Source of the DNA: a virus | Lineage: Duplodnaviria; Caudoviricetes | IMG/VR virus record: IMGVR_UViG_3300031555_000867 | Coordinates: 4,383-68,382 of that record | Length of the DNA: 64,000 bases | Reading direction: 5' to 3' (one strand) | Part shown: piece by piece, positions 31,668 to 40,911 of the stretch | Numbering within the stretch: position 1 is the first letter of the stretch | Layout of the letters: every line of letters begins with the position of its first letter | The notes under the pieces: model-generated | Database searches by the model: none | Seen by the model: the letters and a program-made list of their open reading frames with translations, nothing else | What the model was told of the DNA's origin: nothing | Made by a program: the position numbers and the translations under genes

Positions 31668-33218
31668 TTAGACCTTCTCGCAATAATCGAGAGAAATCCA
31701 TCCTGCACCGGACTTCAGCTTGCCCCAACCTTTCGTTGAGCCTTTGCCAGTTTTCTCCTCGACAATCGTGAAGGAACCAATACCGGTACACTGACCGGTC
31801 TTATCATAGTTCGTGCCGGGTCCTTTGCGGATATTCAAATCCGTAATGGACACTCTTACCTTGTATGGTACATTACTCTTCGGAGTCTCTACTGTTGCAG
31901 TAGACTTCCCGATTTTCACATACTCCGGATTTTCGAGATAAATCCAACCTACTCCTGACTTCAATTTACCCCATCCATTGCTTACCTGAGTAATCGTGAA
32001 TGAGCCTTTGCCAGTCTGCCCTTTGACAGTTCCTTTCATCGAAGGTTCTGAACGATAGTTGAGGTCTGTAATCAATACCTGCACCATGAATGGAGTCTGA
32101 GGAAAGTCTGTATTCTCTTCCTTCTTCTCCTCAGCCACGGAACCGCCGAGTGCAGCCGTAACTGCATTTGCCAGTTCGCCATATCTTGAATAGAGCCACT
32201 CACCGGGGCAAGACTTATTCGCAAACCATCTGTGAGCAGTCAGCACCATCTCGTCATCTGCCGGTTTATATGCAAGGGTTTTCTCCTTGCTGCCAAGCCA
32301 TAACAGTTTTGTTTTGCCGTTTCTACGGCAGATATCGATACACAACGCTTTTAACTTGCTGTATACCACATCTTTGATTGCATACGGATGAGTCTTATCC
32401 GATGCACACTCGATTGTAACTGCCTGTTGGTCGTTATCATTCGAAGAACTGCACCAACTTCTGTTCGCTTCATCGACACACAAGCACACTCTTCCATCAT
32501 AGCCAATGCCGTAGTTACAGCTTGCCTGTCTGCTCGGACTGGTAAAGCATCCACCGATGCGTTCTGCCGTAAGCTGGCCTACAACTACATGAGGTGTGAT
32601 TCTGCAAAGTTTCTTCGTTCTCTTGCCACTGTGGTTAGGACTTAACACAGTGCAATCTACTAATGGACTGTTACTCATTTTTGTCTCCTCCTTCACTGTC
32701 GTTTTCGCATACTTGTCGTAATAGACCTGACCGTAACCGGCTCTCTTCTGCTGTACAGAGGTTCCCTGATTTGCAGGACGCTCATATTGCAACAAAACGG
32801 CATTGGATGCTTCCAATACCGTCTTTGCTGATTTCAATATGTTCAATACTCCCTTGTAGCCTTCGCTGAGTTCCTTCCACAGGAAATCCAACTGTACTTC
32901 CAAGTCTCCGATTGATTTGCCAGTTCCTTTTACGAAGTTATACAAATTCTGCTTTCTGCTCCAATAAGTCCACTGAGCCAAGCCATATCCGGCCTTATCC
33001 CTGACAAAATTGCCATAGGAACCGTTGTCTACCGCTTTCGTGTACTCATCGTCTGTCATACCGAGTTTCTTCTCGTATGTATTCTGCAGATTGTTCGGTC
33101 TGAGTCCGGATTCTGCATACAGATTGCCCATCAATCCGGCAATTCCATAAGCATTCAATCCCTTTTTGCTGAGAAAATTCCAAATTTTCTCTTCGTTCGT
33201 GCTTCCAATAAGTGACAT
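31668..33218 (-). CDS. endolysin: phage lysozyme-2 domain + amidase-2 domain + two SH3b
   Basis: GIAGLMGNLYAESG/GLAQWT; ITPHVVVG...HRWFANKSCPG; two GWGKLKSG.GWI repeats; start trimmed to ATG 33218 (AAGGAGG). Confidence 0.92.
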   Translation of the reverse strand: MSLIGSTNEEKIWNFLSKKGLNAYGIAGLMGNLYAESGLRPNNLQNTYEKKLGMTDDEYTKAVDNGSYGNFVRDKAGYGLAQWTYWSRKQNLYNFVKGTGKSIGDLEVQLDFLWKELSEGYKGVLNILKSAKTVLEASNAVLLQYERPANQGTSVQQKRAGYGQVYYDKYAKTTVKEETKMSNSPLVDCTVLSPNHSGKRTKKLCRITPHVVVGQLTAERIGGCFTSPSRQASCNYGIGYDGRVCLCVDEANRSWCSSSNDNDQQAVTIECASDKTHPYAIKDVVYSKLKALCIDICRRNGKTKLLWLGSKEKTLAYKPADDEMVLTAHRWFANKSCPGEWLYSRYGELANAVTAALGGSVAEEKKEENTDFPQTPFMVQVLITDLNYRSEPSMKGTVKGQTGKGSFTITQVSNGWGKLKSGVGWIYLENPEYVKIGKSTATVETPKSNVPYKVRVSITDLNIRKGPGTNYDKTGQCTGIGSFTIVEEKTGKGSTKGWGKLKSGAGWISLDYCEKV

Positions 33219-33231
33219 GCCTACCGCCTCC

Positions 33232-33639
33232 TTATCCTCTGCCATCCTCTTCGGAATCAACTTCCGTTTTGTGGCTTTCACCTAATATCTTTCCGTCATT
33301 GTGCTCAAAGATATTGCCCACCGTCTTCATCACAGTCACACCCAAAATTGCAACAATCGCCTGTTCAGACAAACTCTCGACCGGATATACCATTCCGTAC
33401 TGAAGAGTTCCTACAAAAGCAATCAGATATGACAACGATACCCATACCAGTGCGGCAATCTGAGTCGTTACATACAGAAACTCTGTGATGCCTTTGATTG
33501 TGATTTTCTTCTTTGCTCGGGAGCCTTTGATGATGTTTCTATACTTCCGATACTCTCTTCTATGTAGCAAGTAATTCAACAACGCTCCCATAAGAAAGGC
33601 ACATACTGCTACTACAATTACTGCTTTTTCCATCTGCAC
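33232..33639 (-). CDS. membrane protein in the lysis cassette (holin candidate)
   Basis: Three hydrophobic segments; upstream of the endolysin. Confidence 0.6.
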   Translation of the reverse strand: MQMEKAVIVVAVCAFLMGALLNYLLHRREYRKYRNIIKGSRAKKKITIKGITEFLYVTTQIAALVWVSLSYLIAFVGTLQYGMVYPVESLSEQAIVAILGVTVMKTVGNIFEHNDGKILGESHKTEVDSEEDGRG

Positions 33640-33644
33640 ACCTC

Positions 33645-34118
33645 CTACAGAAAATCATGCTTTTTCATTCGTTCTTTGAACGACTCACGGATCAATTCGA
33701 TGCTTGTATTCGTGATATCATTCTTGAACTCCGGATGCTCCCTACAGTAAGCCGTATACCTTGCGATATCTTCCATCGTTTGGTCGAAATGGTCCTTACT
33801 GTGTTTTATGTCGCACCCTAACTCATCTGCAAAACGCAAAATTCTGACTCGTGACTGCACCACGGATTCTTCGAGGATGTCACCTTTCAATTCCTTTCGG
33901 GTTTTCTCCAATTCGGTTTTGACAATACCGACATCCTCTTTAATTCCTGCTACATCACCTTTCAAATCTTTGATGGCTTCCAGAACTTCCTTGTTCTCTT
34001 CTGTCTTGTCATCCTCCAATTTGTCCTTCCTTTTCCGTCTGTCCATGATGTAGTCGATTATGCCTTTGACAATAACCACACCGATGGCAGATGCCAGTCC
34101 AATAAGTGCCTCATTCAT
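33645..34118 (-). CDS. membrane-anchored coiled-coil protein (lysis cassette)
   Basis: N-terminal TM helix, coiled coil, RVRILRFADE motif. Confidence 0.65.
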   Translation of the reverse strand: MNEALIGLASAIGVVIVKGIIDYIMDRRKRKDKLEDDKTEENKEVLEAIKDLKGDVAGIKEDVGIVKTELEKTRKELKGDILEESVVQSRVRILRFADELGCDIKHSKDHFDQTMEDIARYTAYCREHPEFKNDITNTSIELIRESFKERMKKHDFL

Positions 34119-34144
34119 CTTTGCTCCCTTCTGATACCCGAAGA

Positions 34145-34315
34145 CTATTCTTCTTCGGTTGCAGCACTATCCTCAGGCTGCGTATCAATTTTCTTATTAG
34201 AGCCGACTACCACATAACTATACTTGCTTGAAATGATGTTGCTTTCCGGTACTTCGAAGTACTTAGCAAGAATGCTCTTGATGTCGCTCTGATTTACTAC
34301 AATTCCGTTTTGCAT
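34145..34315 (-). CDS. small hypothetical protein (56 aa)
   Basis: Manual translation MQNGIVVNQSDIKSILAKYF...; GGAGG RBS; overlaps the RT stop. Confidence 0.55.
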   Translation of the reverse strand: MQNGIVVNQSDIKSILAKYFEVPESNIISSKYSYVVVGSNKKIDTQPEDSAATEEE

Positions 34316-35481
34316 AATCCATCTTCCTCCTGTAATTTCTTTGCCTTTTCTCTTTCAAAGACATAGATTTCATTTAATCGTTTCTTTATCTGTTCGTTTG
34401 CCACATTCTCCACCATACCTGAGTAGGATGCCACTCGTCTGTCAAAGTCCTCCTGCGTGATTTCTCCTGCAAAGTAGGCACGGCATATCTCATGGAACGA
34501 TGACTTCATCCTGCGGATTGTCTGCTTTCTGAGTTTCAGCTTATTAGCATCAACGATATGTCCAACAAACTCAATCTTTCCAAGTGGCCGGATAGCCGTT
34601 TTCTTATTCAAATCCAAGTGCAGTCTGCTCATCAGAAACTTCTCAATCTCCGTTTTGTAGTACACCGCTTCACTCTTAGAGCGAGCAATGACGATTACAT
34701 CGTCCATGTACCGCACATACATCTTTATCCTGAGTGTGTGCTTGCAGAACTGGTCCAACTCATTCAAGTAGATATTCGCAAACAACTGGCTTGTCAGGTT
34801 GCCAATCGGCATCCCCACTTCTGACAGCCATTCTTCCTCGGCAACTTCCTCTGCCGACATAAATCTTGGTAATCCAAACTTTGCACCGCCCGAATCAACA
34901 ATCACTCTGAGCAATCCCATCAACTGCGGGTCATCTATTCTCTTCGAAAGAATGTCCAACAAAACTTCATGGTCTACTCTGTAGAAATACTTACTGATGT
35001 CGATTTTGAGGTAATACCATTCTCCGGGCTTATTCTCTGCCATCTGCATCCAGTACTGTAAACGCTTTACTGCTTTATGCGAGCCTTTGTCCTTCCGGCA
35101 AGCATAACTGTCCTCAATCATCATCCGGTCAAAGAACGGATTCAGCTCAAGGTACACCGCCCATTGAACTACTCTGCTTGCGATAGGCAATGCCATTACA
35201 AGCCTTTTCTTCGGTACATACACCCAATGCTTTCGGTACGGTCCAAATACGAATGTGCCATCCCTGACTTCCCTTTGGATTCGAAGCAGATTACTGTCTA
35301 GGTCATTGCTAAATTCAAGCATCTCTATACGGTATCTCTTCTGCTTTCTTGCATTCAGGTAGGCTTCATTCAATCTTTCAAATTCAGTCATCGAATAGAA
35401 CACATCTTTCAGCATCTTACGATCATCTGAATCAATGCGTGTGCCGTTTCCGGCTCCGCAGCAAATCGTCATTTCTTCCAT
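34297..35481 (-). CDS. DGR reverse transcriptase
   Basis: YLKIDISKYF, GMPIGNLTSQLFANIYL (DGR-type GxxxSQ), YVRYMDD; no maturase or endonuclease tail; next to TR and avd. Confidence 0.96.
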   Translation of the reverse strand: MEEMTICCGAGNGTRIDSDDRKMLKDVFYSMTEFERLNEAYLNARKQKRYRIEMLEFSNDLDSNLLRIQREVRDGTFVFGPYRKHWVYVPKKRLVMALPIASRVVQWAVYLELNPFFDRMMIEDSYACRKDKGSHKAVKRLQYWMQMAENKPGEWYYLKIDISKYFYRVDHEVLLDILSKRIDDPQLMGLLRVIVDSGGAKFGLPRFMSAEEVAEEEWLSEVGMPIGNLTSQLFANIYLNELDQFCKHTLRIKMYVRYMDDVIVIARSKSEAVYYKTEIEKFLMSRLHLDLNKKTAIRPLGKIEFVGHIVDANKLKLRKQTIRRMKSSFHEICRAYFAGEITQEDFDRRVASYSGMVENVANEQIKKRLNEIYVFEREKAKKLQEEDGLCKTEL

Positions 35482-35570
35482 TTACTCAAACGGAAAGGCT
35501 AACAGACCCCTTTGACCTCTAAACCTGCATGGTTCCTTGAAACCATACACCTATGTCCGTTAGAAGGCAG

Positions 35571-35683
35571 AGCAGAGCGGCCACCAATGTTCGTGTTGAC
35601 ATTAGAACGAGGGTTGTTGAGGTTCGAGTTGAACACCCCTGCATTACCGCCATTGTTCCAGTTACCGCCACGATACAGGCACC
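35571..35683 (-). repeat. DGR template repeat (TR)
   Basis: AAC/AAT-rich; 26 adenines in 113 nt; identical to VR1 and VR2 at all 87 non-A positions. Confidence 0.96.
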
Positions 35684-35698
35684 GCACTGGCCTGTTCC

Positions 35699-36157
35699 CT
35701 ATTTTTCTTTATTCTCTAAACTCTTTGAATAACCGCCAATCATTCTGCCGATTTCATCATTGAATCTAGCCCATACTTCTCGCTCATGCATAGTGAGAGG
35801 TGGAGCAAACTTATCTCCGCAGTATGCCTTATCTGATGCCAGTACAACGAGTTCTTTCAGAACCGCCAACTCTACATCAAGATTCTGCACCGTAGTCTTC
35901 TTGTAGATTTTCTTCTCGATTTCGGTGGCATACTTGAACATATTCAGCATACAATCCCTCATCATGTCTGCCAGTTTTCGGTTCCTTCTCGGAAACTTAT
36001 TTACGACCGGCATTCCATACTTCATCATCTCGCTGATTTTCTCCTTGAGGACGAATTTGTGTGGCTCGATGCCTACTTCCTCAGCATTCTGCGGAACCTC
36101 GTAGCTGCCTCCATAATTCTTCGTAGGTCGGTTATTTCGGCTGTGTTTGTTATCCAT
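35699..36157 (-). CDS. avd: DGR accessory variability determinant (Avd-like four-helix bundle)
   Basis: Lies between target and TR; LDVELAVLK and EIGRMIGG motifs. Confidence 0.9.
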   Translation of the reverse strand: MDNKHSRNNRPTKNYGGSYEVPQNAEEVGIEPHKFVLKEKISEMMKYGMPVVNKFPRRNRKLADMMRDCMLNMFKYATEIEKKIYKKTTVQNLDVELAVLKELVVLASDKAYCGDKFAPPLTMHEREVWARFNDEIGRMIGGYSKSLENKEK

Positions 36158-36191
36158 TCTCTCTCCTATTCATAGATTTTTTCAAAAGAAT

Positions 36192-36213
36192 AGGACGCAC
36201 TCTCGTGCGTCCT
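36192..36213 (-). other. DGR hairpin/cruciform downstream of VR1
   Basis: Perfect 9-bp stem AGGACGCAC/GTGCGTCCT, loop GAGA (coding strand), 43 nt beyond VR1. Confidence 0.85.
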
Positions 36214-36244
36214 TCCAGTTATTCAGCAACCAGTTTGCAGTTTA

Positions 36245-37327
36245 CTACTCAATCAAAGCAGAGCGGCCACCAATGCTCGCGCCGACATAAGAACGAGGGT
36301 TGCTGAGGCCCGAGCTGAACACCCCTGCATAACCGCCATCGGTCCAGCGACCGCCACGAAACAGGCACCGCTCAGCTTCGCCGTTGTTCACATAGAAATG
36401 GTCGCCGCCATAGTTAGCATCGATACCGTCTCCTGTTAAAGCGGTGTCGGCTAACATAGCCAGTGTCTGTAACAATAACTTCGCAGCAGCACCGATTGTG
36501 CTGTCGCAAGCTACACTTGCAAAGGAACATCCGTTAGATGTAGTTGCATTTGCTATTGCAGTTGTGTAAGTCCACTTACCACTAACCCAATCGAGCTTAA
36601 CAGTACCTGCAGTTGTACCATTGCCATCAGGAGTTACTAATTCACCGGTAGCGGCATTGATAGCCTTCCATTCTGCTGAGGATGCGGAAAGGTCGCAAGT
36701 AGGGTCTGCCGCATTGTTATCCGGAATAATCTGCAACTCGCCATATACGAGTCTGAGACCGGTGCACCATTCCCATACATTGCCGTTCATATCCCAAATA
36801 CCTTCAACAGTACCATCGTGGGACCATGTCACAGGGCCTGTGCCAGTAGCAACACGACAAATCTTACCATCGCCATCCTTGTAAGTAGGGATTGCTTTGT
36901 ATACGGTTTCGGAAGTGTCCTTACCGTAGTTGTTGTTACCCTTAGGCTCACAACCATTCTTGTGACACCATAATGCCACTGCCGCCCATTCAGCCGCAGT
37001 TACTTCATGCCACTTATCACCTTTTGCTCTCGCATAAGCAACAAATGTATCAAGACCGGCACTTGCTGCAGGATCTTCTCCGGGAACACTGTATGCTCTG
37101 CCATTTCTGTGGCAGGTCTGGAATTTTGCAAACCAAAATCCATCAATCTCCTTGCCATTCACACGGAATGCAGGAAGAACGGATGTATCTGTCGAACTGA
37201 GTACATCGCAGATACGGAACTTAGGAATATACACCATAACAGAAGGTGCTTCCTTATCGTCATACTTCAAAGCATTGTTCGGGCAGCTACACTTGAGTGC
37301 AAATTCTGCCATATTGTAATTTGACAT
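36245..37327 (-). CDS. DGR target protein 1 (FGE-sulfatase / C-type lectin fold), probable receptor-binding tail protein
   Basis: Last gene of the tail cluster; GTGPVTWSH, DMNGNVWEW, LFRGG.W...IGGRSA; C-terminal VR1. Confidence 0.92.
   Translation of the reverse strand: MSNYNMAEFALKCSCPNNALKYDDKEAPSVMVYIPKFRICDVLSSTDTSVLPAFRVNGKEIDGFWFAKFQTCHRNGRAYSVPGEDPAASAGLDTFVAYARAKGDKWHEVTAAEWAAVALWCHKNGCEPKGNNNYGKDTSETVYKAIPTYKDGDGKICRVATGTGPVTWSHDGTVEGIWDMNGNVWEWCTGLRLVYGELQIIPDNNAADPTCDLSASSAEWKAINAATGELVTPDGNGTTAGTVKLDWVSGKWTYTTAIANATTSNGCSFASVACDSTIGAAAKLLLQTLAMLADTALTGDGIDANYGGDHFYVNNGEAERCLFRGGRWTDGGYAGVFSSGLSNPRSYVGASIGGRSALIE
36257..36369 (-). repeat. DGR variable repeat VR1
   Basis: 113-nt ungapped alignment to TR; 15 mismatches, all at TR adenines. 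Confidence 0.96.
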
Positions 37328-37344: not shown

Positions 37345-37713
37345 TTAAATGTTCATGCCATCGATACTGAAAAGTCTGAGTTCAACATCGTCAGTATTCA
37401 ATGCAATCTTTGTGCGGGTGATTTCTTCCACCTCTTTGGTTACTTCTTCGCCGCTTTCAGGGTCAATCTCTGTCTTCTCGACCATCTCAACAGTTTCATC
37501 ATACTGCGTTTCAGGAATGACAACCTGAGCCACATAGAATCTGCCGTCACCGATAACAAGGAAACCTTCGTTATCAGCCATGATATCCTTAACTACTTCG
37601 TAGTCTCTCTGATACTTGTCAAGTCTGATAGTCAGTTCATCATTAAAGGTGAGCTTGTAGCCGTTGAGTTCGTAATCGACCTTAGTACCGGCATTCATTT
37701 CAACGATTTTCAT
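37345..37713 (-). CDS. hypothetical tail-region protein
   Basis: ORF track; RBS; position. Confidence 0.7.
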   Translation of the reverse strand: MKIVEMNAGTKVDYELNGYKLTFNDELTIRLDKYQRDYEVVKDIMADNEGFLVIGDGRFYVAQVVIPETQYDETVEMVEKTEIDPESGEEVTKEVEEITRTKIALNTDDVELRLFSIDGMNI

Positions 37714-37733
37714 TCTAAGAGTCCTCCTTTTTC

Positions 37734-38189
37734 TTAGTGATTTTTAGATACCATCGGTTCAAGCATACCGCCTGTAACCTTTACTCTAATACGGACATGA
37801 GTTGCACTTCCATCGTGTACTAACTTGAATCCGTTCAAAGCACGCTCTTTTACCTTGATGCAGCCTAACAAACCACCGCTATACTCGATGACATCGATGT
37901 CAACACTGTAGTTCGTATTTTCTCTCAGGATGCTCAATGCGACAGTCGTTTCCTTGTTGTTGAACGGCCATTCGTAGCTGTTCATCGCAAGGTCAAGAAC
38001 ATGAACTTCACTTCTGTTCTCGTACTCTGCCTGTCTCTGCTGAAACATCATAATCTGACGAGAAAAGGCTTCATCATCAATCCCTGTCTCCATGTTATTG
38101 AAGTGGGCTTGGTCCTGCAGAGTACCCTGCTGAATTACCTGACCGGACTGGTCTTCAACATGGTCCTGCCAATAAGTTCTCTTATACAT
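37734..38189 (-). CDS. short tail-fibre-like/adaptor protein
   Basis: W.DHV...QQGT...A.HFNNME.GI N-terminus resembles fibre N-termini; position. Confidence 0.55.
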   Translation of the reverse strand: MYKRTYWQDHVEDQSGQVIQQGTLQDQAHFNNMETGIDDEAFSRQIMMFQQRQAEYENRSEVHVLDLAMNSYEWPFNNKETTVALSILRENTNYSVDIDVIEYSGGLLGCIKVKERALNGFKLVHDGSATHVRIRVKVTGGMLEPMVSKNH

Positions 38190-38192
38190 GAC

Positions 38193-38528
38193 TTACACCT
38201 CCTCTATCGGTAATACAATCTTGAGCAATACATTCTGAATGCTCGACCTCTGGACAGATACATTCCATTCTGCCGCAAGGGTTCCGTTAATGTCGTAGGC
38301 ACGAACTTTCGAAATCGTACCGCTTTTGCCTTTGTTCTCTACATAGACCATGGCAATAATGTCACTCCCTTCCACCTTCTTGGAGTTCACCACCGCTTCT
38401 GTCCATGCTCCGTTTTCATAGACCATAAACTTGCCAATGGAATTCATCCATTCGATTCTTCTCTTGTTGAGGAAGTCACTACTGTAATTACTCATTTCAC
38501 TTGCTCCTTTCCTGCGGGATTGCCGCAA
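38193..38528 (-). CDS. hypothetical tail-region protein
   Basis: ORF track; position. Confidence 0.6.
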   Translation of the reverse strand: MRQSRRKGASEMSNYSSDFLNKRRIEWMNSIGKFMVYENGAWTEAVVNSKKVEGSDIIAMVYVENKGKSGTISKVRAYDINGTLAAEWNVSVQRSSIQNVLLKIVLPIEEV

Positions 38529-38558
38529 TATTTGAATACGACACCATGCTCATATAAT

Positions 38559-39473
38559 CTACGGCTTAGTGCCGCACTCATCTTCTCCGGCTTCTCCCAC
38601 CTGATATGCAGTTGCTTCTGTCTGTGCATCAATACTTACGGTCACTACCGATGTGTAACCGCTCGTTGTCACCTCAGGATAGGTTCCGCAGTTCTCCGTT
38701 CCACTCTGTTCCGTAGCGTATGTAATCGGCTCTGCTACTGCATCTGCCTGTACATTTGCTTCCTGAGAATATCCTTGAGTCGCAGTCACCGGTTTCGTTC
38801 CGGTAAATACAGGTTCATATACTGTACTTTCCGTACCGATATCCACTTCAACATCTGCATTTTGGCTATTACCTAAGGTCGCTCTTATCGGAACAGTACC
38901 GCACAAATGCTGTCCGCACTGTGGTACTTCAGCCGTGTATAGAGTAACCTCACTTGATACTTCTACATAGGCACTCAATCGGAACTGATAGCTGCAGTTT
39001 ACTCCGGCCGCCTTTACTGGCAGAAGGTTTCTGAGGATGACTTCTCTGCCTTCCTCTACTTCCAATTCCAAGAAAAACGATGCAGGGTACTCAAGGCTTT
39101 CCGAATACCGAATCGGATATCTGTTACAGAAATTTTTAATGCCACGAACTATATCATAGTAAGTGGCATCTCCATAATTCAGCATTATCTTGTAGCCTAA
39201 GATTGCACGGTAGTCCGTGTCATCCATAGCGAACTCTGCACCCTGTTCGCTTATCATCGAGGCTTCTTTTCTTGTCAGGCACAGAATGTCACCGATTGCA
39301 TCCAGTTGAGCACCGGTGGCATTACTAAGCGACCTCTGAAAATTCAGTTGCTCATAGAACACCTGAATATCCTGCATTTGCTTTCCGATTACAGCCATCA
39401 ACGCTTCAATTCGTTCCCTTCCTCGGAACTGCTCCGGCAGGTCACTTATTAGCTTTTTACTGTAATCAACCAT
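38559..39473 (-). CDS. baseplate wedge protein (DUF2612-like)
   Basis: Follows baseplate J; A.G.QLD.IG.I and D..YR..L..KI..N...T motifs. Confidence 0.75.
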   Translation of the reverse strand: MVDYSKKLISDLPEQFRGRERIEALMAVIGKQMQDIQVFYEQLNFQRSLSNATGAQLDAIGDILCLTRKEASMISEQGAEFAMDDTDYRAILGYKIMLNYGDATYYDIVRGIKNFCNRYPIRYSESLEYPASFFLELEVEEGREVILRNLLPVKAAGVNCSYQFRLSAYVEVSSEVTLYTAEVPQCGQHLCGTVPIRATLGNSQNADVEVDIGTESTVYEPVFTGTKPVTATQGYSQEANVQADAVAEPITYATEQSGTENCGTYPEVTTSGYTSVVTVSIDAQTEATAYQVGEAGEDECGTKP

Positions 39474-40911
39474 TGATAACCACCTCGACCATGCTTTCTG
39501 CCGTGATGGCTCTCTGTCTTTCAGTTACATATACATTTTTTGAATCGTAGGAGTCAGGCTTATCGTTGCCGGTTCCCATCGTAATCTCTACATAATCGAT
39601 TCCGCTTACCTTGGCATAAATCTTAGCCATGAAGATATTCTGAGGAATTACATCATCTCCACATTCCAAGGTTTCAATCGTATCAACAATGATAGTCTTC
39701 ACGATATCGGCATAGTCAGCAACAATAGTCATTCCCCTTGCAATCGTCAGTTCCACATGGAACCATGTCTTCACATATTCCGGTCTATTGAATCGGATTG
39801 TGATTTCATCGTCTGCATCTCCATGTACTACTATCTCGGTACTACCATAGGTGTTGATACCACCGGCTTTTGTCTCAAGAATCTGTTGTGCAATCTCGGT
39901 CGCATCGCCACCGTCACACACAACCTCAACACTATGCGGATATCTTCCGAGTGCATCCACAACATCCGTGCAGTTTTCATATACCGTTACCGATGTTACA
40001 CCCTGCACATTTGTGAGGATTGCACTTCTGATACTGTCTTTCATTCGTGAGGAGTGACTGAAAATCTTATCAATGTAGGACCTGCGGAAATCATCATCGG
40101 TTTCTTCAAGTCTACCCTTGATGTAACTTCCTACATTCAGTACGGTATCTAATCCGGTTACGGACTTGATAATCTCCGTCACTGAACCTTCCGGCAAGTA
40201 GATGTCACCATATTCAACGGTTTCGAATACGAATACGCATCCCACATTCTCCGTTGTCAGATTCTCCGACAGGATCATTACATTCTGCGATGTAACTTCA
40301 TTCGCCACGATATTCAAAACCATATTGCTCTCATCTACTGATGCGGTAAAACTCGCATCAACGATTTTCTCTGCCAGTGCTTTCAAACCGGCGAGTGTAT
40401 CTGAGCCTTTCGCAGGAGTAACAGAATAAGACAATCCATTCAGCACTACTGTAAATGGGTTCCCATCTACTGATGCAGCTTTGATACTCGCCTTGTTAAA
40501 GGCATTTCTCATCAACTGTATCTCATTCGTAGGCTTCAACTGTGTTACCGGATTCATATTCGTACAAATCAATGTACTGGCCGGAATTACCGTACCTTCC
40601 TTGCCGGTACAAAGAATATGGTAATATGACTTCGCTTCTTCCTCTCTCGAAATACCGGCAAACTGTGCTGCATTGTCGAGATACATACCTTCGGCACTGG
40701 TCGGATAGGTATTGTTATACACATCCTGACCGAGTTCCCATAATTCAGCGAGCGAATCTGCCACATCCGTAATCAGAGCATTCAGCAAAGAGGTTGTATT
40801 CTGCCTTGTGTTTACTCCCCACTTTTCTGATAACTCCGTGTGCATCTCATCGAGAATTACATCAAGTCTTTTGATATTCACACCTTGTGGTGTCAATCCG
40901 TAATCAGGCAT
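39466..40911 (-). CDS. baseplate J-like protein
   Basis: SAEG.YLD, G...ETDDDFRR, VYEN.T..D..G..PHS.EVV..GG motifs. Confidence 0.88.
   Translation of the reverse strand: MPDYGLTPQGVNIKRLDVILDEMHTELSEKWGVNTRQNTTSLLNALITDVADSLAELWELGQDVYNNTYPTSAEGMYLDNAAQFAGISREEEAKSYYHILCTGKEGTVIPASTLICTNMNPVTQLKPTNEIQLMRNAFNKASIKAASVDGNPFTVVLNGLSYSVTPAKGSDTLAGLKALAEKIVDASFTASVDESNMVLNIVANEVTSQNVMILSENLTTENVGCVFVFETVEYGDIYLPEGSVTEIIKSVTGLDTVLNVGSYIKGRLEETDDDFRRSYIDKIFSHSSRMKDSIRSAILTNVQGVTSVTVYENCTDVVDALGRYPHSVEVVCDGGDATEIAQQILETKAGGINTYGSTEIVVHGDADDEITIRFNRPEYVKTWFHVELTIARGMTIVADYADIVKTIIVDTIETLECGDDVIPQNIFMAKIYAKVSGIDYVEITMGTGNDKPDSYDSKNVYVTERQRAITAESMVEVVING

What the first reader, a model, noticed from the sequence alone, without database searches (positions are those of the whole stretch)
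34297..37327. Complete DGR cassette (target-VR1, hairpin, avd, TR, RT) between tail and lysis genes
Seen: VR1 differs from TR at 15 of 26 adenines (10 A>G, 3 A>T, 2 A>C) and nowhere else. The RT has GNLTSQ and YMDD, Avd has EIGRMIGG, and all frames are intact. Established: this is adenine-specific mutagenic retrohoming as in Bordetella phage BPP-1. The theoretical DNA space is 4^26. Inference: an active receptor-tropism switch.
Basis: partly seen in the sequence, partly recalled or inferred. Interest (0 to 1): 0.7.

Follow-up and report, generated by a model that had tools for sequence, protein, structure and literature searches.

The report
Active two-target phage DGR cassette
This 68-kb uncultured tailed phage carries a complete and evidently working diversity-generating retroelement, an error-prone reverse transcriptase that rewrites the binding tip of a lectin-fold protein encoded next to its baseplate genes. 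It is a close counterpart of a module already described in Faecalibacterium phage Lagaffe and Bordetella phage BPP-1, so it is real but ordinary.

Summary
VR1 (36257-36371) and TR (35571-35685) are 115-nt copies on the minus strand. They differ at 15 sites, all at TR adenines (10 A>G, 3 A>T, 2 A>C; TR has 26 A; chance about 3e-12).

The RT carries the DGR signature IGNLTSQ plus YMDD. Its best solved relative is the BPP-1 bRT, not a group II or retron enzyme. Avd matches bAvd. The target is a homologue of the solved DGR variable protein TaqVP (E 4e-50).

In related metagenome contigs TR stays constant while VR1 differs at 10-17 adenine sites. One contig is identical to the window outside VR1 across the target gene but has 16 differences inside it. 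The element is therefore recently active.

The same TR also serves a remote VR2 (4925-5037). The whole module recurs in phages Lagaffe, Dulem virus 37 and Saumur, and the target-avd-TR-RT-lysis order also in BPP-1. This scan has met look-alike cassettes in at least seven other genomes.

The receptor-tropism role is inferred from position only. One small, possibly undescribed detail is a periodic CTG-repeat spacer between each VR and its GRNA-loop hairpin.

Verdict: new member of a known kind, low interest.

The parts
36245..37327 (-). DGR target gene 1 (360 aa), an FGE-type C-type-lectin-fold variable protein
   Evidence: phrog_2889 E 1e-111. Pfam FGE-sulfatase E 1.6e-5. PDB 5VF4 (TaqVP) E 3.8e-50, with its C-terminus aligned to the TaqVP VR. 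54% identical to Lagaffe gp26.
36257..36371 (-). VR1, a 115-nt variable repeat encoding roughly the last 40 residues of target 1
   Evidence: 15 mismatches to TR, all at TR adenines. Hypervariable in 12 cluster members and 7 related contigs.
36214..36256 (-). [quoted passage not shown]
   Evidence: WCTG enrichment P about 6e-4 against shuffles. The same array follows VR2 and the VRs of Dulem 37, Saumur, Lagaffe, BalMu-1 and L004, and is absent after TR.
36192..36213 (-). Hairpin/cruciform element: 9-bp GC-rich stem with a GAGA loop; also terminator-like
   Evidence: DNA fold z -5.5. Terminator-like hit. Fits the 7-10 bp stem and GRNA-loop consensus of Guo 2011 (PMC3240598).
35699..36157 (-). 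avd, accessory variability determinant (152 aa)
   Evidence: Pfam PF22296 bAvd 72.4 bits (cut-off 40). NCBIfam DivGenRetAVD 70.4 bits (below cut-off 80). phrog_3206 'Avd protein of DGR' E 4e-21.
35571..35685 (-). TR, template repeat (115 nt, 26 A, 11 AAY codons in the VR frame), starting 14 nt after the avd stop
   Evidence: In the five related contigs that carry TR it is identical to the window's, except for one A>T in the two contigs of one lineage (L011, L012).
35482..35570 (-). 89-nt spacer between TR and the RT start (non-coding; presumed part of the DGR RNA)
   Evidence: Identical in L009, L011 and L013. The predicted RNA fold is no better than shuffles (z -0.7), so no structure is claimed.
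34297..35481 (-). DGR reverse transcriptase (394 aa; relatives are called from Met4, 391 aa)
   Evidence: RVT_1 E 2e-20. phrog_1423 E 5e-118. PDB 8ub7 (328-aa RT whose numbering matches BPP-1 bRT) E 2e-39, against GsI-IIC group II RT 1e-19. IGNLTSQ 226-232, YMDD 258-261, and R93/I226 aligned to bRT R74/I181.
4901..6067 (-). Remote DGR target gene 2 (388 aa), a paralogue of target 1 (35% identity) with an extra N-terminal region
   Evidence: BLASTP E 1e-55. phrog_2889 E 6e-90. The exact 388-aa product is on record. Neighbours are HTH regulators and a Lar-like gene.
4925..5037 (-). VR2, a 113-nt variable repeat served by the same TR
   Evidence: 14 mismatches, all at TR adenines. Hypervariable in 9 cluster members.
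4855..4878 (-). Hairpin after VR2: 10-bp stem of different sequence with the same GAGA loop, 46 nt after VR2
   Evidence: DNA fold z -3.8. Sequence.
37345..40911 (-). Upstream context: baseplate J-like (39466..40911), baseplate I/wedge-like (38559..39473) and three small conserved ORFs (38193..38528, 37734..38189, 37345..37713)
   Evidence: PHROGs 6, 587/14404, 7177, 9010 and 8734. The same order occurs in Lagaffe gp21-25.
31668..34315 (-). Downstream context: a 56-aa ORF overlapping the RT end, two small ORFs read here as holin-like, and the endolysin (31668..33281)
   Evidence: Pfam Phage_lysozyme2, Amidase_2 and SH3_3 on the endolysin. The same order occurs in relatives, Lagaffe and BPP-1. 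'Holin-like' is my reading of the translated sequences; no family matched.

Best explanation
This is a diversity-generating retroelement (DGR) of the BPP-1/Lagaffe type in an uncultured 68-kb contractile-tail-type phage.

Proposed mechanism, inferred by homology:
- The avd-TR-spacer region is transcribed.
- The RT-Avd complex copies TR into cDNA and misincorporates opposite template adenines.
- The cDNA replaces VR1, and also the remote VR2. Each VR is marked by the shared GC-rich 3' end, a CTG-repeat spacer and a GRNA-loop hairpin.

Because TR adenines sit in 11 AAY codons plus three others, about 5e14 protein variants of the C-terminal lectin-fold surface can arise without stop codons.

Shown here: the anatomy, the family membership of all parts, and the population pattern (constant TR, adenine-site-only variation in VR1 and VR2 between near-identical phages). 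That pattern means the element has been working recently.

Inferred: target 1, encoded directly after the baseplate genes, is a virion-borne ligand- or receptor-binding protein, so diversification changes adsorption specificity. I put that part at about 60%.
For: - TR/VR: 15/15 and 14/14 mismatches fall on TR adenines. Chance is 3e-12 and 4e-11.
- RT: [I/V/L]GxxxSQ and YMDD are present, and the equivalents of bRT R74 and I181 are conserved (PMC7826257). The best solved hit, taken to be bRT, scores 139 bits against 74 for the best group II RT, and no retron structure matches. All phage-database relatives listed come from known or apparent DGR phages.
- Avd.
- Target: TaqVP homologue with aligned VR.
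- Hairpins: different stems, same GAGA loop. This matches the experimentally defined requirement for stem structure and a GRNA loop (PMC3240598).
- Activity: the 12 members of the 90%-identity cluster vary almost only at AAY-coded positions. TR is conserved in the five related contigs that carry it, and VR1 in those contigs and two more differs from TR at 10-17 sites, all at TR adenines except one C>T in L010. Contig L019 has 0/974 differences outside VR1 in the gene and 16/115 inside it. VR2 behaves likewise.
- Synteny: identical to Lagaffe, Dulem virus 37 and Saumur; BPP-1 shares the target-avd-TR-RT-lysis order downstream of a tail gene. VR variability in Lagaffe virion reads is published (PMC5883640).
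Against: - No reads or experiments are available, so activity rests on differences between assembled contigs from different samples.
- Nothing tested here shows that target 1 is in the virion. By sequence it matches TaqVP, which was monomeric in the crystal and in solution, over its whole length. It does not match Mtd and shows no separate tail-attachment domain.
- The AlphaFold model failed (pLDDT 29.6).
- Avd is just under the NCBIfam equivalog cut-off (70.4 against 80 bits).
- The hairpins lie 43 and 46 nt from the end of TR/VR homology, beyond the 4-34 bp range tabulated for phage DGRs.
- The TR-spacer RNA fold is not better than shuffles.
Confidence: 0.9

Rival explanations
1. The element is a genuine DGR, but target 1 is not a receptor-binding tail protein. 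It could be a virion decoration binding non-host ligands such as mucus or glycans, or a non-structural binder like the remote target 2. Diversification would then not switch host tropism.
For: - Target 1 aligns end to end with TaqVP, described as a single globular lectin-fold domain from Thermus aquaticus that was monomeric in the crystal and in solution, with no extra tail-attachment domain.
- Its paralogue, target 2, sits among HTH regulators and a Lar-like gene.
- The function of the equivalent Lagaffe proteins is stated to be unknown (PMC11792537).
Against: - The position directly after baseplate J/I genes and before lysis is the position of mtd in BPP-1, and it is conserved in four phages.
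- The three small conserved ORFs just upstream could act as adaptors. That is inference only.
Confidence: 0.3
2. The cassette is a fossil. It diversified VR1 and VR2 in the past but is now inactive in this particular genome.
For: - No read-level data exist for this genome.
- Gulyaeva et al. saw no read-level VR variation for Lagaffe_CP, CP11 and Lelie in culture despite between-genome variation (PMC11792537).
Against: - RT, Avd, TR and both targets are intact, and the RT is 92-100% conserved in its cluster.
- L019 differs from the window at 16 VR1 sites but at 0 of 974 other sites in the gene and 1 of the rest of its 1691 nt. Diversification is therefore more recent than any background divergence.
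Confidence: 0.07
3. The RT belongs to a group II intron, retron or defence RT, and the repeats are unrelated.
For: The strongest NCBIfam hit by E-value is the group II intron RT/maturase model (8.5e-36). PADLOC DRT/UG models also hit.
Against: - All those scores are far below the curated cut-offs (124 against 300; 37 against 235).
- Pfam reported no family other than RVT_1 on the RT, so no maturase or endonuclease domain was detected.
- The signature is IGxxxSQ, not QGxxxSP.
- The bRT score is twice the best group II score.
- Avd, TR and adenine-only VR differences are present.
Confidence: 0.01

Closest known systems
DGR of Faecalibacterium phage FP_Lagaffe (Lagaffevirus; gp26 target, gp27 Avd, gp28 RT, second target gp40)
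   Same: - Gene order is identical: baseplate J, baseplate I-like, three small ORFs, lectin-fold target, Avd, TR, RT, two small ORFs, endolysin.
- Target 1 is 54% identical over its full length and the RT 40%.
- TR is 115 nt with AAY codons and adenine-only differences.
- A second paralogous target lies in the early region (PMC11792537).
- VR variability in virion reads is published (PMC5883640).
   Different: - The genome here is larger (68 kb against 48 kb).
- The second target is about 31 kb from the cassette rather than about 9 kb.
- The hairpins here have GRNA (GAGA) tetraloops. The Lagaffe VR1 hairpin has a 7-nt loop, and Lagaffe VR2 lies inside the gene with no clear hairpin.
- The host here is unknown.
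Bordetella phage BPP-1 DGR (mtd-avd-TR-brt), the prototype
   Same: - Same order: tail gene, target with C-terminal VR, avd, TR, RT, two small ORFs, endolysin.
- The RT is 30% identical, with the same signature motif and the same adenine-mutagenesis residues.
- A GC-rich hairpin with a GRNA loop follows VR.
   Different: - By sequence the target matches TaqVP, not Mtd. BPP-1 has one VR; this element has two.
- The hairpin is 43-46 nt from the end of TR/VR homology, with a CTG-repeat spacer in between.
- The spacer between TR and the RT start is shorter (89 nt, against 144 nt in the BPP-1 record).
Dulem virus 37 (lemur faeces) and Clostridium phage Saumur (Enterocloster clostridioformis)
   Same: - These carry the closest RTs among deposited phages (51% and 49%).
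- Both have the same cassette and a second remote target next to HTH, Lar, methylase or replication genes.
- Both have CTG-repeat spacers and GRNA hairpins.
   Different: No more than 55% protein identity in any part compared. In their records the targets and TR are annotated as 'CalU17 / enediyne biosynthesis' or as hypothetical proteins.
TaqVP, Thermus aquaticus DGR variable protein (PDB 5VF4)
   Same: Homologous along the whole length (E 3.8e-50). It has the FGE-type lectin fold, and its C-terminal VR aligns with VR1.
   Different: TaqVP comes from a Thermus aquaticus genome, was monomeric in the crystal and in solution, and has no known ligand. It carries no information on phage tail attachment.

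Membership tests
Diversity-generating retroelement (DGR) | RT of the DGR type: [I/V/L]GxxxSQ in place of QGxxxSP, and a YxDD catalytic box | tested here: met
   IGNLTSQ at 226-232 and YMDD at 258-261. Motif definition from PMC7826257. Best PDB hit 8ub7, taken to be bRT, at E 2e-39.
Diversity-generating retroelement (DGR) | TR/VR repeat pair differing only at TR adenines | tested here: met
   VR1 15/15 and VR2 14/14 mismatches at A. P = 3e-12 and 4e-11.
Diversity-generating retroelement (DGR) | Accessory protein (Avd) adjacent to TR/RT | tested here: met
   Pfam bAvd 72.4 bits, above its cut-off of 40. PHROG 'Avd protein of DGR'. The NCBIfam equivalog scores 70.4 bits, just below its cut-off of 80.
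Diversity-generating retroelement (DGR) | VR at the 3' end of an ORF encoding a variable-protein scaffold (C-type lectin fold) | tested here: met
   Sequence homology to the solved TaqVP with aligned VR. My own structure model failed.
Diversity-generating retroelement (DGR) | Target-site cis elements: GC-rich 3' end or IMH, followed by a GC-rich hairpin with a 4-nt GRNA loop that is absent after TR | tested here: met
   9- and 10-bp stems with GAGA loops after VR1 and VR2, and none after TR. The distance of 43-46 nt exceeds the published 4-34 bp.
Diversity-generating retroelement (DGR) | Unidirectional TR-to-VR transfer with adenine mutagenesis actually occurring | tested here: met
   Population level only. 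TR is conserved and VR varies at A sites in relatives. L019 is identical outside VR1 in the gene. Direct cDNA or homing assays are not possible with these tools.
Group II intron RT/maturase | Score over the curated TIGR04416 cut-off; maturase (X) domain; QGxxxSP motif | tested here: not met
   123.8 bits against a cut-off of 300. Pfam finds only RVT_1. The motif is IGNLTSQ.
Retron RT | Score over the curated retron RT model cut-off | tested here: not met
   NF038233 scores 36.8 bits against a cut-off of 235. No solved retron RT appears among PDB hits at E <= 1e-3. msr/msd RNA was not searched for.
Mtd-type phage receptor-binding protein | Sequence or structure membership with Mtd (trimeric, with N-terminal tail-attachment domains) and presence in the virion | tested here: inconclusive
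   No Mtd chain matched at E <= 1. Only the wider FGE-type lectin-fold relation (TaqVP) is shown. Virion location cannot be tested here.

The most novel reading that the evidence does not exclude
In this clade of Firmicutes-phage DGRs the target-recognition element (the IMH equivalent) may be a periodic array of three to five (A/T)CTG(G) repeats at 7-8 nt spacing. The array fills the 34-46 nt between the end of TR/VR homology and the GRNA hairpin. It is present at both targets of the window and in Dulem 37, Saumur, Lagaffe, BalMu-1 and L004, and it is absent after TR. If it is functional it would be an undescribed addressing code that lets one RT serve several dispersed targets. Standard DGR finders that look for hairpins 4-34 bp from VR would miss it.
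Probability: 0.3. Interest if true: 0.45.

Novelty: new member of a known kind. Interest (0 to 1): 0.22.

Why it matters
It adds one more well-documented, naturally active two-target DGR to the Lagaffe-like group of gut-type phages. It also supplies natural VR variants: 12 for target 1 and 9 for target 2. It does not change what is known about DGRs. Its practical value is as a clean example for annotation, because homologous targets and TRs in GenBank records are named 'SUMF1/EgtB/PvdO enzyme' or 'CalU17/enediyne biosynthesis'. It is also comparative material for the cis elements that mark a DNA site as a DGR target.

Tried and rejected
- Megablast of the cassette against deposited phages found no match. 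Relatives were found only at protein level.
- Two scans of species genomes, with the target alignment and then the RT alignment, gave no close prophage. The only hit was the BalMu-1 prophage of Alkalihalobacillus at 46%. The host therefore stays unidentified.
- Searching the parent records of related contigs for VR2 failed because those records are not held. I used protein clusters instead.
- The AlphaFold2 model of target 1 from a 19-sequence alignment was unusable (pLDDT 29.6). The fold assignment rests on sequence homology to 5VF4.
- The RNA fold of TR plus spacer was not better than shuffles (z -0.7). No DGR-RNA structure is claimed.
- The promoter scan gave fewer hits than shuffles. No promoter is claimed.
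- A paper search for '8UB7' returned nothing. I take that chain to be BPP-1 bRT because it is 328 aa long and its numbering puts I181 and Q187 in the signature motif, as published.
- A formal RT phylogeny with group II and retron outgroups was not built, because no reference sequences were available through the tools. Score comparisons were used instead.
Full report
**Observation**

The region 34297-37327 holds four consecutive minus-strand features:
- a 360-aa gene (36245..37327)
- a 152-aa gene (35699..36157)
- a non-coding 115-nt repeat (35571..35685)
- a 394-aa gene (34297..35481)

An ungapped comparison of the non-coding copy (TR) with the 3' end of the 360-aa gene (VR1, 36257..36371) gives 15 mismatches. 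Every one falls at a TR adenine: 10 A>G, 3 A>T, 2 A>C. TR has 26 adenines. The chance that 15 random mismatches all land on the 26 A of 115 positions is 3e-12. No frame is interrupted.

A third copy of the repeat, VR2 (4925..5037), ends a paralogous 388-aa gene (4901..6067). It carries 14 mismatches, again all at TR adenines. The window is 64 kb of a 68,382-bp IMG/VR virus record, classed as linear and about 88% complete. That record holds only these three copies.

**What the parts are**

*RT.* It hits Pfam RVT_1 only and PHROG 1423 'reverse transcriptase' at E 5e-118.
- Against curated NCBIfam models it stays far below every family cut-off: group II intron RT/maturase 124 bits against 300, retron St85 37 against 235, and the DRT models lower still.
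- Against all solved structures the best hit is 8ub7 (E 2e-39, 139 bits). This is a 328-aa RT whose numbering places I181 and Q187 in the motif, as published for BPP-1 bRT.
- The best group II RT (GsI-IIC) scores 74 bits, and no retron RT appears.
- The [I/V/L]GxxxSQ motif is the published signature of DGR RTs, in contrast to QGxxxSP. The two bRT residues shown to promote adenine mutagenesis, R74 and I181, align with R93 and I226 here.

*Avd.* The 152-aa protein is an Avd: Pfam bAvd 72 bits (cut-off 40), PHROG 'Avd protein of DGR', and NCBIfam DivGenRetAVD 70 bits, just under its cut-off of 80.

*Target.* It belongs to PHROG 2889 (E 1e-111). It is homologous over its full length to PDB 5VF4 (E 3.8e-50), which is TaqVP, the Thermus aquaticus DGR variable protein with an FGE-type C-type-lectin fold. 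The C-terminal 40 residues align with the TaqVP variable region.

*Template design.* In the VR frame TR encodes 11 AAY codons plus TAT, ACG, ATT and a silent GCA. This is the classic design that yields about 5.5e14 protein variants and never a stop codon.

**Target-site elements**

TR/VR homology ends in a shared GC-rich stretch (…GGTGGCCGCTCTGCT). After VR1 come 43 nt, then a 9-bp GC-rich stem with a GAGA loop (36192..36213). After VR2 come 46 nt, then a 10-bp stem of different sequence with the same GAGA loop (4855..4878). Both fold far better than shuffled controls (z -5.5 and -3.8). TR is followed by neither element.

This matches what Guo et al. showed experimentally for BPP-1: stem structure rather than sequence, and a 4-nt GRNA loop, are required for homing. 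The distances tabulated there were 4-34 bp (PMC3240598).

The intervening spacers are not random. They carry (A/T)CTG(G) repeats at 7-8 nt period, significant against shuffles in each spacer. The same array occurs after the VRs of Dulem virus 37, Saumur, Lagaffe, BalMu-1 and metagenomic relative L004. The BPP-1 IMH also holds GTCTG…CCTG just before its hairpin. I therefore read the spacer as the IMH equivalent. Whether the periodic repeat has been described I could not establish. It is the only possibly new detail, and it is the subject of a separate note of this scan.

**Is it active?**

It fails clearly.
- Target 1 sits in a 90%-identity cluster of 12 proteins. These are nearly invariant over residues 1-320 and differ at almost exactly the AAY-coded positions of the last 40 residues.
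- At DNA level, the five related contigs that carry TR have a TR identical to the window's, except for one A>T in the two contigs of one lineage. VR1 in those contigs and in two more (seven contigs from seven samples) differs from TR at 10-17 sites. All of these are TR adenines except one C>T in L010.
- The most telling case is L019, a 1,691-nt contig. It differs from the window at 16 sites inside VR1, at none of the other 974 positions of the gene, and at one position elsewhere.
- VR2 behaves the same way in its nine-member cluster.
- The RT is 92-100% conserved in its cluster.

This is the pattern expected of ongoing or very recent mutagenic homing. It is still between-assembly evidence, not read-level or experimental proof.

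**Context and comparison**

- Upstream lie baseplate hub, wedge, J-like and I-like genes and three small conserved ORFs.
- Downstream lie a 56-aa ORF, two small ORFs I read as holin-like from their sequences, and a lysozyme/amidase/SH3 endolysin.
- Exactly this order occurs in Faecalibacterium phage FP_Lagaffe (gp21-gp31). There the target is 54% and the RT 40% identical.
- It also occurs in Dulem virus 37 (RT 51%) and Clostridium phage Saumur (RT 49%).
- The prototype BPP-1 has tail fibre, mtd, avd, TR, brt, two small ORFs, endolysin.
- All three gut-type phages also carry a second paralogous target in their early region.
- The two-VR layout of Lagaffe, CP11 and Lelie, and VR variability among cognate genomes, are published (PMC11792537). 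VR variability in Lagaffe virion reads is also published (PMC5883640).
- Within this scan, look-alike RTs led to at least seven other DGR notes on other genomes. The six with follow-ups were judged ordinary DGRs.

**What is not shown**

That target 1 is a receptor-binding tail protein is an inference from its position and from analogy with Mtd. By sequence it matches TaqVP, a protein from Thermus aquaticus that was monomeric in the crystal and in solution, rather than Mtd. It has no recognisable separate attachment domain. The Lagaffe homologues have no demonstrated function either. My structure prediction failed for lack of alignment depth. The host is unknown: two scans of species genomes found no close prophage. 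A gut Clostridia host is only suggested by the nearest deposited relatives.

**Verdict**

'Active' is supported at population level, and 'tropism switch' is plausible but untested. The element is a new member of a well-known kind and the interest is low. A modest open point is the CTG-repeat spacer in the target site.

Noticed in passing
window 36214-36256 and 4879-4924; L021, L022, L024, L025, L015, L017, L004 downstream of their VRs: Three to five (A/T)CTG(G) repeats at 7-8 nt period fill the gap between each VR and its GRNA-loop hairpin across this DGR clade. They are absent after TR. I could not find a description of this in the papers searched.
   Followed up: partly
L021 about 4590-4640 and L022 about 2625-2675 (Dulem virus 37): The last roughly 45 nt before and through the hairpin are identical after VR1 and VR2 of Dulem virus 37. 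In the window the two hairpins have different stems. This suggests recent duplication or conversion of the target-site element in Dulem 37.
   Followed up: no
protein P0031 (cluster of target 2; JGI contig of 3,244 nt): One relative of target 2 is frameshifted inside VR2 and ends differently. This is either a real disrupted variant or an assembly artefact of VR microdiversity.
   Followed up: no
window about 5038-5040 (codon before the VR2 homology block): The codon at the 5' edge of VR2 is TGG (W) here but R or G in relatives, and R (CGG, as in TR) in target 1. The base is not an adenine in TR, so the 5' limit of cDNA integration may vary between lineages.
   Followed up: no
L011 and L012, TR position 12: In one lineage TR itself carries A>T (TAT to TTT), and its VR1 has T at that site. 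The template is therefore not absolutely fixed.
   Followed up: no
GenBank records PP511443.1, NC_047911.1, NC_030945.1 (loci L021, L015): Homologous DGR targets are annotated as 'CalU17 biosynthetic pathway protein' or 'SUMF1/EgtB/PvdO family nonheme iron enzyme'. An ORF called across the TR is named 'enediyne biosynthetic pathway protein'. These look like misleading names for DGR parts.
   Followed up: no
window 34145-34315: A 56-aa ORF overlaps the 3' end of the RT gene. It is called in every related contig, and a longer ORF sits in the same place in Lagaffe, Dulem 37 (named XhlA there) and BPP-1. It has no family match here.
   Followed up: no
window 36192-36213: The VR1 hairpin is followed by a T-rich run and scores as the only intrinsic-terminator-like site on the coding strand of the region. 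It may therefore also end the tail operon transcript. The VR2 hairpin has no T run.
   Followed up: partly
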